A stretch of 26,182 nucleotides of DNA. Source: a virus. Position numbers and translations under genes: made by a program. The notes beneath the pieces were generated by a model. The model ran no database searches. It was not told where the DNA came from and worked only from the letters and a program-made list of their open reading frames with translations. This document shows positions 25,502-26,182 of the stretch, one piece after another (position 1 is the stretch's first letter; each line of letters begins with the position of its first letter). The stretch lies in UHGV virus genome UHGV-2131677. One strand, written 5' to 3'.

Positions 25502-25813
25502 TTATTCGGGGAATAACGCCCTGATATTTCCGGCCATCTGATTGGTTATCTGTGCGGTTGGTACTGGCTGTGACACGGGGCGTTCAGTCCTGGTTTGTGT
25601 CACGGGTAACGCCTCATCGTCAGCCCATGCAGCCAGTCGGTAAGCCTCTGCTGGATTCATTTTCAGAAGTGCCAGCCCGGCCAGAAAAGCCACACGCTGG
25701 CCGCTTTTGCGGGCTTCTGGTGTAAGGCTGTCCAGCCAGGCGCATGCTTCGCTTTCGTTCTTGACGGCTGCAGGCTTCAGATAGAAACTTATCCGCCTGG
25801 TTGATGTTGTCAT
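25502..25813 (-). CDS. parR: ParR-like partition adaptor (ribbon-helix-helix centromere-binding protein)
   Basis: MTTSTRRISFYLKP...DSLTPEARKSGQRVAFLAGLAL...IRALFPE resembles plasmid R1 ParR (RRTIAFKLNP...DSIPQGERS...AALTAGLAL...LRSLFP); ATG 4 nt after the ParM stop, GGGAG upstream. Confidence 0.7.
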   Translation of the reverse strand: MTTSTRRISFYLKPAAVKNESEACAWLDSLTPEARKSGQRVAFLAGLALLKMNPAEAYRLAAWADDEALPVTQTRTERPVSQPVPTAQITNQMAGNIRALFPE

Positions 25814-25817
25814 TGGT

Positions 25818-26182
25818 TCACTCCCTGTCCATGTCATGGAGTCCATTAACCAGGGCAAACTGTGGCTCCGGTGTTGTGTGAATGTTTGCGTTGAGGCCGT
25901 AAGCGTCATGTACCGCCGGAGCCACAATCTCCGCCCCTCCACCGACAACCATCACCCGACCGTACCCCGAAAACCCCGCCAGCGCGCGAATCACGCGTTG
26001 TTTCAGTGTTTCTTCCTTTTCACGAATAACCGCCATCAGGCTGTCGTAATGCGCGACATTGTGGATGTGCTGGCGCAGCCAGGCTTCATCATGGCGATGT
26101 TCGATAATGGTATTGGCGATGTGGTGACTGGTACGCATACCGTTAGTGGCCATCACCGACAGTACGGCATCGGTCATCAGTG
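25818..26182 (-). CDS. parM: ParM/StbA-like actin-family partition ATPase, C-terminal part only (gene runs off the right edge of the window)
   Basis: C-terminus GFSGYGRVMVVGGGAEIVAPAV...ALVNGL matches R1 ParM ([22 protein letters not shown]...DLVNGM). Confidence 0.75.
   Translation of the reverse strand, partial: LMTDAVLSVMATNGMRTSHHIANTIIEHRHDEAWLRQHIHNVAHYDSLMAVIREKEETLKQRVIRALAGFSGYGRVMVVGGGAEIVAPAVHDAYGLNANIHTTPEPQFALVNGLHDMDRE

What the first reader, a model, noticed from the sequence alone, without database searches (positions are those of the whole stretch)
25502..26182. ParM/ParR-type partition locus directly flanking a P2-like structural module: possible phage-plasmid
Seen: the C-terminal 119 aa of a ParM/StbA-like actin ATPase (GFSGYGRVMVVGGGAE...ALVNGL) followed 4 nt later by a ParR-like ribbon-helix-helix protein, in the standard parM-parR order on the minus strand. 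Established: ParMR is a type II plasmid partition system; P2-like phages normally persist by integrase-mediated integration and are not known for actin-type segregation systems. Inference: the element may replicate as a plasmid, the prophage may sit on a plasmid, or the locus is further hotspot cargo.
Basis: partly seen in the sequence, partly recalled or inferred. Interest (0 to 1): 0.6.

Follow-up and report, generated by a model that had tools for sequence, protein, structure and literature searches.

The report
ParMR partition genes in integrated prophage
The window ends in a genuine actin-type (ParM/ParR) DNA-segregation gene pair, but it is a conserved and already annotated part of a P88-like P2-family prophage that sits integrated in the E. 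coli chromosome, not evidence of a plasmid.

Summary
Window 25818-26182(-) encodes the last 120 residues of an R1-type ParM. Four bases downstream, 25502-25813(-) encodes a 103-aa ParR/StbB-family protein.

A public contig 100% identical to window 15502-26182 shows what lies beyond the window end. parM is intact (319 aa) and follows the phage replication gene gpA. An integrase and E. coli glsA lie further on.

A 28-bp direct repeat (window 49-76, and next to the integrase) flanks a ~35.5-kb prophage. The reconstructed empty site is contiguous in 5423 of 5426 complete E. coli genomes. The element is therefore chromosomally integrated, not plasmid-borne.

parMR is a fixed module, not variable cargo:
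- It sits in the gpA-parM-parR-cargo-portal order in P2-like prophages of Escherichia, Citrobacter, Plesiomonas, Hafnia, Serratia and Enterobacter.
- These ParMs form their own clade, at most 52% identical to plasmid ParMs.
- parM is under strong purifying selection.

About 24% of complete E. coli genomes carry the module, 1454 copies on chromosomes against 2 on plasmids.

The phage-plasmid idea for P88-like phages is already published as speculation (Pfeifer 2020; Rousset 2022). The function has not been tested. My best guess is that it segregates or positions the transient circular phage DNA.

The parts
25818..26182 (-). 3' part of parM: the last 120 codons plus the TGA stop. The gene continues beyond the window end to window-equivalent position 26777 and is 319 aa in full.
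   Evidence: Translation. Pfam PF21523, 140 bits. The full gene read from L020, which is 100% identical to the window, is intact. It aligns with R1 ParM structures at 309 bits over the full length. The GGGAE adenosine motif lies inside the window. The DDGSTNIK, PESIPAG and DLGGTTLD motifs lie in the part beyond it.
25502..25813 (-). parR, a 103-aa centromere-binding adaptor of the StbB/ParR family. It starts 4 nt after the parM stop.
   Evidence: Translation. Pfam PF10784, 83.5 bits. phrog_2515 'partition protein', 192 bits over the full length. Its N-terminal ~65 residues align with R1-like ParR. The TRRISFYLKP N-terminus and the C-terminal NIxxLFPE tail motif are shared with other phage-clade ParRs.
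25261..25291 (-). Terminator-like hairpin (CGCCAGCTGAGAGGTTGGCG) followed by a T-run on the minus strand. It is the likely end of the gpA-parM-parR transcript, about 210 nt after the parR stop, and it abuts the DUF3800 stop codon.
   Evidence: The consensus scan on the identical DEC5B sequence found it at L001 20011-19992 on the minus strand. Coordinates were transferred using the alignment. This is a pattern match only.
24464..25270 (+). DUF3800 gene (268 aa), convergent with parMR. It is the variable cargo of the gpA-gpQ interval and is not part of the par system.
   Evidence: Pfam PF12686. PADLOC candidate defence model PDC-M04A, 120 bits. Most related phages lose homology exactly at the parR stop, window 25502, and carry other genes in this position.
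22856..23905 (+). Portal gene gpQ, the far boundary of the gpA-parM-parR-cargo-gpQ interval.
   Evidence: PF04860 on the identical L020 gene. Annotated as portal protein in the homologous DEC5B and P88 loci.
49..76 (.). 28-bp att core repeat (CCAGCAAGGGGAAGGTCAAGAAATTAAT) marking one prophage end. Window 1-48 is E. coli chromosome.
   Evidence: A perfect second copy lies between the integrase and glsA at L020 280-307. The reconstructed empty site is contiguous in 5423 of 5426 complete E. coli genomes.

Best explanation
The locus is an intact type II (ParM/ParR, R1-type) DNA-segregation cassette. It is a long-standing, vertically inherited part of the replication region of P88-like (Xuanwuvirus and relatives) P2-family temperate phages. 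The phage in the window is integrated in the E. coli chromosome upstream of glsA.

Proposed mechanism:
1. parM and parR lie directly downstream of gpA on the same strand and are probably co-transcribed with the early operon.
2. ParR binds two dyad sites (GGG-N10-CCC, 73 bp apart) that straddle the gpA stop codon just upstream of parM. This candidate parC lies beyond the window end.
3. ParR's conserved C-terminal tail captures ATP-ParM filaments.
4. The filaments push apart the monomeric circular phage genomes that gpA rolling-circle replication produces after infection or excision.

On this view the system serves the transient extrachromosomal phase. It could secure inheritance of the circle before integration or after excision, or spread and position replicating circles during lytic growth. 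It does not maintain a permanent plasmid prophage.

Shown here: gene identity, intactness, conserved ATPase motifs, purifying selection, conserved gene order across genera, integration, and the existence and conservation of the dyads.

Inferred: ParR binding to the dyads, co-transcription with gpA, the timing, and the benefit to the phage.
For: **Identity**
- Pfam StbA_N scores 275 bits and the ParM C-terminal domain 220 bits on the full protein. PF10784 scores 83.5 bits on ParR.
- R1 ParM structures match at 309 bits end to end.
- The actin-fold motifs DDGST, PESIPAG, DLGGTTLD and GGGAE are conserved across the phage clade.

**Intactness and selection**
- ParM is 319 aa in the identical source contig.
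- Pairwise dN/dS among six P88-like alleles is 0-0.08. It is 0.04-0.08 for DEC5B against them over codons 1-285.
- The full-length 90% clusters hold 5663 member sequences.

**A phage module rather than cargo**
- The order gpA-parM-parR-(variable genes)-portal is the same in P88, phiSM and other Escherichia phages.
- It is also the same in Plesiomonas, Hafnia, Serratia and Enterobacter prophages, whose ParMs are only 54-63% identical.
- These ParMs form one clade in a neighbour-joining tree.
- Against 72,556 plasmids there are only 6 records at 90% identity or more. The four I inspected are phage- or prophage-derived. All the rest are below 60%.

**Candidate cis sites**
- A 42-nt repeat carrying the dyad occurs twice upstream of parM and nowhere else in 40.9 kb. 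The chance expectation is 0.13.
- The two-dyad layout, at about -55 and -128 with 72-73 bp spacing, recurs in E. coli, Plesiomonas and Hafnia. In Hafnia an extra ORF separates gpA from parM, so the sites travel with parM.
- The two ParR alleles (53% identical) keep an identical 18-residue N-terminus and sit next to the same sites.

**ParR tail**
- The C-terminal NAxxLFP motif is shared across the clade and resembles the R1 C-terminus KNAMKLIN.

**Operon**
- No terminator-like site lies on the coding strand between gpA and parM, and no consensus promoter was found there.

**Integration**
-. Across complete E. coli genomes the copies are 1454 chromosomal against 2 on plasmids.

**Precedents for par systems acting on transient circles of integrative elements**
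- srpMRC of SXT/R391 ICEs (PMC4489591).
- AlpAC of the Corynebacterium prophage CGP3 (PMC4446434).
Against: - No experiment on any P88-like parMR was found in the searched literature.
- The candidate parC has only two sites, not the ten 11-bp iterons of R1. No promoter is embedded in it.
- In the window's own source the proximal dyad carries a mismatch (CAGG instead of CGGG).
- Serratia and Enterobacter relatives have different repeats.
- The dyads partly overlap coding sequence, so some of their conservation may reflect protein constraint.
- They could also be RNA hairpins. On the opposite strand one of them scores as terminator-like.
- Timing of expression is inferred from gene order alone.
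- Truncated ParM variants exist in some lineages (P0010, P0017), so the module is dispensable for prophage persistence.
Confidence: 0.55

Rival explanations
1. Facultative phage-plasmid. P88-like phages can persist as low-copy circular plasmids in some hosts or conditions, for example when attB is missing or occupied or integration fails. ParMRC would then provide stable inheritance, so the phage has both integrative and episomal lysogenic states.
For: - One complete 34,461-bp circular 'plasmid' record is an entire P88-like phage closed through attP (NZ_CP148288.1). The same phage, 100% identical over the 1.4 kb compared, is integrated in another strain from the same project.
- The Plesiomonas relative lies on a phage-sized 32,167-bp contig with the integrase at its end.
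- The idea is published as speculation. [quoted passage not shown] - True phage-plasmids with related machinery exist. D6 has a StbA-type ParM that is 46.5% identical. KS14 is a P2-like plasmid prophage.
Against: - In complete E. coli genomes 1454 places are chromosomal and 2 are on plasmids.
- Only one of 72,556 PLSDB plasmids is a stand-alone phage circle. The others I inspected are chromosome or prophage fragments next to IS26, or a partial contig.
- The window's element and every contig that carries its exact ParR and reaches that end are integrated at glsA.
- No plasmid-type (theta) initiator appears among the early-region Pfam hits. The only replication gene is gpA. From general P2 knowledge, gpA expression belongs to the derepressed early programme.
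- KS14, the proven P2-like plasmid prophage, instead has RepB plus ParA and lacks a tyrosine integrase.
- A circular contig can simply reflect spontaneous induction.
Confidence: 0.2
2. An accessory 'moron' with a role other than partition of the phage itself. One possibility is partition-based incompatibility or exclusion directed at related phages or at plasmids with cross-reacting centromeres. Another is some other host-benefit function. The location fits, because the gpA-gpQ interval collects anti-phage systems.
For: - The pair lies in the gpA-gpQ interval that Rousset et al. define as a defence hotspot, next to a DUF3800 gene that matches the PADLOC candidate defence model PDC-M04A.
- ParR occurs as two alleles only 53% identical. 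The window's ParM carries a divergent 34-codon C-terminal patch with saturated dS. Such mosaicism is typical of specificity or incompatibility determinants.
- Up to three copies occur per genome, so cross-talk between co-resident prophages is plausible.
Against: - ParM and ParR hit no PADLOC model.
- The pair is not variable. It keeps a fixed position next to gpA across six genera while ParM diverges to 54% identity.
- All sequence features of a working ParM ATPase and a ParR adaptor are retained, under strong purifying selection.
- No toxin or effector domain is present.
Confidence: 0.12
3. A non-functional relic of an ancient plasmid-phage recombination, carried along passively.
For: - Truncated ParM ORFs exist in some chromosomes: P0017 (188 aa, 555 members) and P0010 (229 aa, 649 members).
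- Phage 503458 shows a fragmented gene, although that record has frameshifts throughout.
Against: - dN/dS is 0-0.08 with no internal stop codon in seven independent alleles.
- There are 5663 full-length member sequences.
- Both genes, their 4-nt coupling, the ParR tail motif and the upstream dyads are conserved across genera with 54-63% ParM identity.
Confidence: 0.04

Closest known systems
ParMRC (StbA/StbB) type II partition system of plasmid R1/NR1
   Same: - Same two-gene order, with parR immediately after parM.
- ParM aligns over its full length with the R1 ParM structures, at about 47% identity to R1-like plasmid ParMs, and all nucleotide-binding motifs are present.
- ParR belongs to the same Pfam family, PF10784. 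It has a related N-terminal segment (RRISFYLKP against RRTIAFKLNP) and a related C-terminal tail.
- Repeated DNA elements lie directly upstream of parM.
   Different: - It sits in an integrative phage, downstream of gpA, not on a plasmid.
- Its ParM belongs to a separate phage-only clade, at most 51.5% identical to any plasmid ParM in PLSDB.
- ParR is shorter (103 aa against 116 aa in the R1-like plasmid compared).
- The candidate centromere is two 16-18-bp dyads 73 bp apart, not 2 x 5 direct 11-bp iterons. No consensus promoter lies within it.
Escherichia phage P88 and other Xuanwuvirus (Peduoviridae) genomes
   Same: - Same gene order: integrase, repressor, cox-like gene, early genes, gpA, parM, parR, cargo, portal.
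- ParM is 93-94% identical.
- The genes are already annotated as 'plasmid segregation protein ParM' and 'partition protein'.
- The window's phage is a member of this group.
   Different: - The window's allele has a divergent last 34 codons in ParM.
- The cargo differs: DUF3800 here, other genes in P88.
- The lysis gene also differs: lysozyme PF00959 here, M15 peptidase in P88.
srpMRC of SXT/R391 integrative conjugative elements (Carraro et al. 2015, PMC4489591)
   Same: A ParMRC-type system carried by an element that normally resides integrated in the chromosome. According to the paper's abstract, it reduces loss of the transient, replicating, plasmid-like excised form. This is the closest functional analogy to what is proposed here.
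   Different: - The carrier is a conjugative element, not a phage.
- The proteins are only distantly related to R1 ParM and ParR.
- Its function has been shown experimentally, whereas the phage system is untested.
AlpAC/alpS of Corynebacterium glutamicum prophage CGP3 (Donovan et al. 2015, PMC4446434)
   Same: An integrated prophage encodes an actin-like filament former plus a DNA-binding adaptor. According to the titles and abstracts of the two papers, the system is required for efficient phage DNA replication and is involved in phage DNA transport.
   Different: - It belongs to a very distant actin-like family in a Gram-positive host.
- It is not a P2-like phage.
- The gene order and adaptor family differ.
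True plasmid prophages: phage D6 (P1-like, StbA-type ParM) and Burkholderia phage KS14 (P2-like)
   Same: - D6 carries an R1-type ParM that is 46.5% identical.
- KS14 shows that a phage with a P2-type virion module can be a plasmid prophage.
   Different: - By the KS14 authors' account KS14 lysogenises as a plasmid, and D6 is a 91-kb record carrying an annotated StbA-type plasmid stability gene. That D6 is a plasmid prophage is from my own knowledge, not checked here.
- KS14 has RepB plus ParA and a serine recombinase, and it lacks gpA and a tyrosine integrase.
- The window's phage keeps gpA, a tyrosine integrase and att sites, and it is integrated.

Membership tests
Type II (ParMRC) partition system | Actin-fold ATPase ParM with StbA_N and ParM C-terminal domains over its full length | tested here: met
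   PF06406 scores 275 bits and PF21523 220 bits on the 319-aa protein. The window fragment alone scores 140 bits on PF21523. R1 ParM structures match at 309 bits over residues 2-314.
Type II (ParMRC) partition system | Conserved nucleotide-binding and catalytic motifs: phosphate 1 DDGST, PESIPAG, phosphate 2 DLGGTTLD and adenosine GGGAE | tested here: met
   All four motifs are present and aligned with R1-like ParM in every phage-clade member. Only GGGAE lies inside the window.
Type II (ParMRC) partition system | Small ParR adaptor of the StbB family encoded immediately downstream of parM | tested here: met
   PF10784, 83.5 bits. The gap after the parM stop is 4 nt. The same arrangement is seen in all related loci.
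Type II (ParMRC) partition system | ParR N-terminal ribbon-helix-helix DNA-binding fold | tested here: inconclusive
   Family membership and the alignment to R1-like ParR support it. The single-sequence AlphaFold model was of low confidence (pLDDT 55.7) and left residues 1-19 unstructured. No solved ParR sequence matched.
Type II (ParMRC) partition system | ParR C-terminal peptide that binds ParM | tested here: inconclusive
   The C-terminal motif NI/NAxxLFP is conserved in both E. coli ParR alleles, in the four other genera and in one IncF plasmid ParR. It resembles the R1-like KNAMKLIN. The predicted C-terminal helix 86-100 is the best-scoring block of the model.
Type II (ParMRC) partition system | parC centromere: an array of ParR-binding repeats upstream of parM that contains the autoregulated promoter | tested here: inconclusive
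   Two conserved dyads 72-73 bp apart lie upstream of parM in three genera and are unique in the locus. There are only two sites, against ten iterons in R1. No consensus sigma-70 promoter was found. The sites lie beyond the window end.
Type II (ParMRC) partition system | Stabilises an otherwise unstable replicon in cis | not testable with these tools
   This needs a plasmid-loss assay.
Phage-plasmid (P1, N15, SSU5, D6, KS14 type) | The prophage resides as an extrachromosomal replicon | tested here: not met
   A 28-bp att repeat flanks the prophage. The empty site is contiguous in 5423 of 5426 E. coli genomes. The source contig is 466 kb and carries glsA next to the integrase. Across complete E. 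coli genomes there are 1454 chromosomal places against 2 on plasmids.
Phage-plasmid (P1, N15, SSU5, D6, KS14 type) | Plasmid-type replication initiator or replicon | tested here: not met
   The precomputed Pfam hits for all early-region genes of L020 show only Phage_GPA. No Rep_3, RepB or IncFII RepA hit is present, although several small ORFs have no hit at all.
Phage-plasmid (P1, N15, SSU5, D6, KS14 type) | Partition system present | tested here: met
   parM and parR.
Variable cargo of the P2 gpA-gpQ hotspot (Rousset et al. 2022) | Located between gpA and gpQ | tested here: met
   The order gpA-parM-parR-DUF3800-portal is seen in L020 and DEC5B.
Variable cargo of the P2 gpA-gpQ hotspot (Rousset et al. 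2022) | Content varies between closely related phages or matches defence models | tested here: not met
   parMR is constant and abuts gpA (in Hafnia and Enterobacter one or two extra ORFs intervene) in six genera. It has no PADLOC hit. The neighbouring DUF3800 gene does vary and hits PDC-M04A.
Xuanwuvirus / P88-like Peduoviridae | P88-like gene order and high nucleotide identity across the gpA-parMR region, plus a P2-type virion module | tested here: met
   The par region is 87-93% identical at nucleotide level to P88, Chuche, phiSM and other Xuanwuvirus records. Gene order is the same. P2-type structural Pfam domains are present.

The most novel reading that the evidence does not exclude
A phage-specific ParMRC lineage has been conserved next to gpA in P2-family prophages across Enterobacterales and is present in about a quarter of complete E. 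coli genomes. The most novel reading my evidence allows is that this lineage is a working cytoskeletal apparatus. It would actively segregate or position the monomeric circular phage genomes made by gpA rolling-circle replication. That would give an ordinary integrative temperate phage a regulated, plasmid-like phase. The phase could bridge infection and integration, rescue excised circles, or allow conditional episomal lysogeny when integration fails.
Probability: 0.35. Interest if true: 0.6.

Novelty: already known. Interest (0 to 1): 0.3.

Why it matters
As a discovery it adds little. The genes are annotated in RefSeq, in phage P88 and in PHROGs, and the phage-plasmid speculation has been printed twice.

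The open question is biological. An actin-type segregation machine under strong purifying selection sits in integrated prophages of roughly one in four complete E. coli genomes, and nobody has tested what it does.

If it acts on transient phage circles, it would extend the idea shown for SXT/R391 ICEs and the CGP3 prophage. In those elements, integrative elements actively manage their excised form. Here the idea would apply to a very common enterobacterial phage group.

Two results from this analysis make the experiment straightforward to design:
- the candidate two-dyad centromere;
- the clean separation of phage ParMs from plasmid ParMs.

Tried and rejected
- **Source search in complete E. 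coli genomes.** Searching most of the window (25 kb) found no exact source; the best hit was 96.8% identical over 91% of the query. The source was found instead by an exact look-up of the window's ParR protein.
- **Chromosome of the strain with the 34-kb phage 'plasmid'.** The guessed accession NZ_CP148286.1 is not in the collections. Whether that strain also holds an integrated copy is still unknown.
- **NCBIfam.** Only sub-threshold hits were found: PRTRC_D at 30 bits and PRK13917 at 28 bits, against cut-offs of 215 and 417. These equivalogs do not describe this lineage.
- **ParR against PDB sequences.** No hit.
- **AlphaFold model of ParR from a single sequence.** Too weak to use (pLDDT 55.7).
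- **Rfam on window 23800-26182.** Only chance-level hits below the gathering scores.
- **Consensus promoter scan.** No promoter was found upstream of parM. My hand-picked TTTAAA-N17-ATTAAT in DEC5B matches 8 of 12 positions and is not conserved in P88 or in the source, so I do not rely on it.
- **parC downstream of parR (window 25292-25501).** Rejected, because this stretch is not conserved among related phages; homology stops at the parR stop.
- **Defence-system reading of ParMR.** Rejected on the PADLOC result and on the conserved gene order.
- **Literature searches with 'ParM' as a word start.** These returned mostly noise such as Parma and Parmley. Whole-word searches for ParM with P88 or Peduoviridae found nothing relevant.
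Full report
**1. What is in the window**

On the minus strand, window 25818-26180 translates without a stop to 120 residues ending ...GFSGYGRVMVVGGGAEIVAPAVHDAYGLNANIHTTPEPQFALVNGLHDMDRE. The TGA stop is at 25820-25818. The ORF runs off the window end. Four bases later, an ATG at 25813 opens a 103-codon ORF that ends at 25502.

- The fragment matches the Pfam ParM C-terminal domain (PF21523, 140 bits, E=8e-41).
- The small ORF matches PF10784, Plasmid_stab_B, the StbB/ParR family (83.5 bits).
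- PHROGs call both 'partition protein'.

**2. What lies beyond the window**

An exact look-up of the window's ParR protein returned contigs that carry it. One of them is L020, from assembly GCA_020447595.1, a 466-kb contig. It is 100.000% identical to window 15502-26182 over 10,681 bases, so it can stand in for the source.

- parM is complete and intact there: 319 aa, at window-equivalent 25818-26777.
- The full protein scores 275 bits on StbA_N and 220 bits on the ParM C-terminal domain.
- It aligns from residue 2 to 314 with the R1 ParM crystal structures (309 bits).
- tblastn puts plasmid ParMs at no more than 51.5% identity, and R1-like ones at about 47%.
- The motifs DDGSTNIK, PESIPAG, DLGGTTLD and GGGAE are all present.

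Upstream of parM, on the same strand and 76 bp away, is the 940-aa replication endonuclease gpA. Then come small early genes, a repressor-like gene, a 338-aa tyrosine integrase, and the E. coli glutaminase gene. The near-identical locus in E. coli O55:H7 DEC5B (99.6%) has the same layout but is integrated elsewhere, next to btuC.

**3. The element is an integrated prophage**

A perfect 28-bp direct repeat, CCAGCAAGGGGAAGGTCAAGAAATTAAT, lies at window 49-76. A second copy lies between the integrase and glsA at L020 280-307. The two copies bracket about 35.5 kb.

I joined window 1-76 to the DNA beyond the second copy to make a 355-bp 'empty site'. It is contiguous in 5423 of 5426 complete E. coli genomes, upstream of glsA, and the listed best hits align in a single piece. 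Window 1-48 is therefore chromosome, and the phage sits in an attB next to glsA.

All five contigs that carry this exact ParR and reach that end show the same integrase-glsA junction.

Pfam confirms the P2-type late region in the window:
- Ogr, gpD, sheath, tube, tape measure, gpU, tail fibre and its assembly protein, and gpI.
- Capsid, scaffold, both terminase subunits and portal.

**4. How common it is, and where it sits**

The gpA-end/parM/parR segment occurs in 1308 of 5426 complete E. coli genomes, at 1454 chromosomal places and 2 plasmid places. The plasmid database gave seven nucleotide matches. I inspected four:
- a prophage fragment next to IS26 in an IncC plasmid;
- a block of Salmonella chromosome with a sopE-carrying prophage, IS26 nearby, on an IncHI2 plasmid;
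- a partial linear contig;
- one 34,461-bp circular record that is an entire P88-like phage, integrase included.

The other three are very large 'plasmid' records (0.44-1.4 Mb) that I did not inspect. In the 1.4-kb par segment compared, that 34-kb circle is 100% identical to a prophage integrated in the chromosome of another strain from the same project.

Among 50,697 phage records, an R1-type ParM is found only in 14 P88-like (Xuanwuvirus) records and in phage D6 (46.5% identity).

**5. A conserved phage module, not transient cargo**

In P88, phiSM, 520873, 569R5 and others the order is always gpA-parM-parR, then variable genes, then the portal. Nucleotide homology to most relatives stops exactly at the parR stop, window 25502. 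So the DUF3800 gene at 24464-25270 is the variable part. It matches the PADLOC candidate defence model PDC-M04A.

The next-closest ParMs in a 5.8-billion-protein search come from four other genera:

| Genus | ParM identity to the window's phage |
|---|---|
| Plesiomonas | 63% |
| Hafnia | 62% |
| Serratia | 58% |
| Enterobacter | 54% |

All four lie in the same slot of P2-like prophages, downstream of gpA and followed by a PF10784 gene, cargo and the portal; in Hafnia and Enterobacter one or two extra ORFs separate gpA from parM.

- In a neighbour-joining tree these phage ParMs form one clade, apart from plasmid ParMs.
- Against PLSDB only 6 records reach 90% identity, and the four I inspected are phage- or prophage-derived. 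All the others are below 60%.
- Two chromosomal ParMs outside the clade belong to an integrated plasmid and to an ICE.
- Pairwise dN/dS for parM among six P88-like alleles is 0-0.08.
- The full-length clusters hold 5663 member sequences, though truncated forms exist in some lineages.

**6. Candidate cis sites**

Just upstream of parM, beyond the window, a 42-nt unit is repeated 73 bp apart. Each copy contains an 18-bp palindrome, CGGGATT-N4-AATCCCG. One copy lies within the last codons of gpA. The other lies in the 76-bp spacer, 34 nt before the parM ATG.

- The motif occurs only there in 40.9 kb, where 0.13 occurrences are expected by chance. It does not occur in the window.
- It is conserved in all seven aligned phages.
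- Plesiomonas and Hafnia have two GGG-N10-CCC dyads at the same distances from parM, 72-73 bp apart. In Hafnia an extra ORF separates gpA from parM, so the sites go with parM.
- Serratia and Enterobacter have other inverted repeats.
- The two E. coli ParR alleles are only 53% identical overall. They share an identical 18-residue N-terminus, the expected DNA-reading strand, and a C-terminal NIxxLFPE motif. That motif recurs as NAxxLFP across the clade and resembles the R1-like ParR C-terminus KNAMKLIN.

This fits a parC/operator role, but the layout differs from R1, which has ten 11-bp iterons around a promoter. I found no consensus promoter and no terminator between gpA and parM. A terminator-like hairpin follows parR at window 25261-25291. 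In the window's own source the proximal dyad carries one mismatch.

**7. Mechanism**

The sequence evidence supports a working ParM ATPase plus ParR adaptor. Three things point to action on the circular extrachromosomal phage genome during the derepressed phase:
- the pair sits at the end of the replication operon;
- no plasmid-type initiator is seen among the Pfam hits of the early region;
- chromosomal residence is near-universal.

From general knowledge of P2, not tested here, gpA replication yields monomeric circles that are also the packaging substrate. Those circles would behave like plasmids.

Two precedents exist:
- srpMRC reduces loss of the excised, replicating form of SXT/R391 ICEs (PMC4489591).
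- AlpAC of prophage CGP3 is needed for efficient phage DNA replication (PMC4446434).

I put this reading at 0.55. The rivals are facultative plasmid lysogeny at 0.2, an exclusion or incompatibility role at 0.12, and a relic at 0.04. KS14, the proven P2-like plasmid prophage, uses RepB plus ParA and lacks a tyrosine integrase (PMC3091744). That contrast counts against stable plasmid lysogeny here.

**8. Novelty**

The genes are annotated as ParM and partition protein in P88 and in RefSeq E. coli genomes. Published remarks include:
- Pfeifer et al. [quoted passage not shown]
- Rousset et al. [quoted passage not shown]
- Magaziner et al. listed the phiSM gene as a fitness factor.

Both the observation and the interpretation are therefore already in print. 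The function is untested. This analysis adds:
- proof that this particular element is integrated;
- the conserved gpA-linked position across six genera;
- the separate phage ParM clade;
- the candidate two-dyad centromere.

Noticed in passing
window 24464-25270 (+): The DUF3800 protein (268 aa) between the portal and parR matches the PADLOC candidate defence family PDC-M04A (120 bits) and phrog_3732 (unknown function). It is the variable cargo of the gpA-gpQ interval. In two Logan contigs (L021, L023) the gene is called shorter, at 236 aa.
   Followed up: partly
window 49-76, and L020 280-307: A perfect 28-bp direct repeat marks the prophage ends. The attB lies upstream of glsA (glutaminase A). 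The site is unoccupied in nearly all complete E. coli genomes (5423 of 5426 hold the contiguous empty site). The near-identical par region in strain DEC5B belongs to a prophage integrated elsewhere, next to btuC.
   Followed up: yes
window 25818-25922 (last 34 codons of parM): The window/DEC5B allele of ParM has a divergent C-terminal patch (19-20 non-synonymous differences, dS saturated). The rest of the gene differs from other P88-like alleles by only 3-6 non-synonymous changes. This looks like a recombination mosaic. The minor clusters P0001 and P0002 share the patch. Its significance is unknown.
   Followed up: partly
parR, window 25502-25759; compare L009 2741-3055 and L005 11741-12055: Two ParR alleles circulate among E. 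coli P88-like phages. They are 53% identical. The first 18 residues are identical and the C-terminal NIxxLFPE motif is conserved, but the middle is unrelated. Both alleles sit next to the same upstream dyads. This may avoid cross-talk between co-resident prophages, since up to 3 copies occur per genome.
   Followed up: partly
window 182-1000 (-): An N6/N4 DNA methyltransferase gene (PF01555, 106 bits) lies between ogr and the att site at the prophage end. It looks like a moron-type accessory gene in a second variable position.
   Followed up: no
window 23906-24463: This is a 558-bp stretch between the portal and the DUF3800 gene. The only ORF (23971-24375, 134 aa, GTG start) has no family hit. 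It is presumably the cos region. A weak, sub-threshold Rfam 'gyrA RNA' hit (23.3 bits against a cut-off of 45) at 23872-23964 is probably chance.
   Followed up: partly
L020 4084-4365 (beyond the window end): A 93-aa ParE_like (PF24732) ORF lies in the early operon of the source prophage. The same family appears in the Serratia and Enterobacter relatives (L015, L016). It may be a toxin-like stabilisation or regulatory gene.
   Followed up: no
L003 (NZ_CP148288.1) and L012 (Plesiomonas contig WEKF01000002.1, 32,167 bp): A whole P88-like phage is deposited as a 34,461-bp circular 'plasmid'. A Plesiomonas relative sits on a phage-sized contig with the integrase 141 nt from the contig end. Either could reflect abundant excised circles or an episomal state. 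Read-level data would be needed to tell.
   Followed up: partly
L026 (Salmonella plasmid pS2122_1, NZ_CP110658.1): A block of Salmonella chromosome (ffh, rpsP, trmD, pheA) carrying a sopE-bearing P2-like prophage with parMR sits on an IncHI2 plasmid, with IS26 nearby. So sopE-carrying (SopE-phage-like) Salmonella prophages also carry this ParMR (ParM 94% identical).
   Followed up: no
window 9367-12534 (-): The tail-fibre gene is 1055 aa here. In DEC5B the homologous position holds a 719-aa fibre gene plus a separate macro-domain gene, and DEC5B also has a serine O-acetyltransferase after gpU that the window lacks. This is host-range mosaicism typical of P2-like phages.
   Followed up: no
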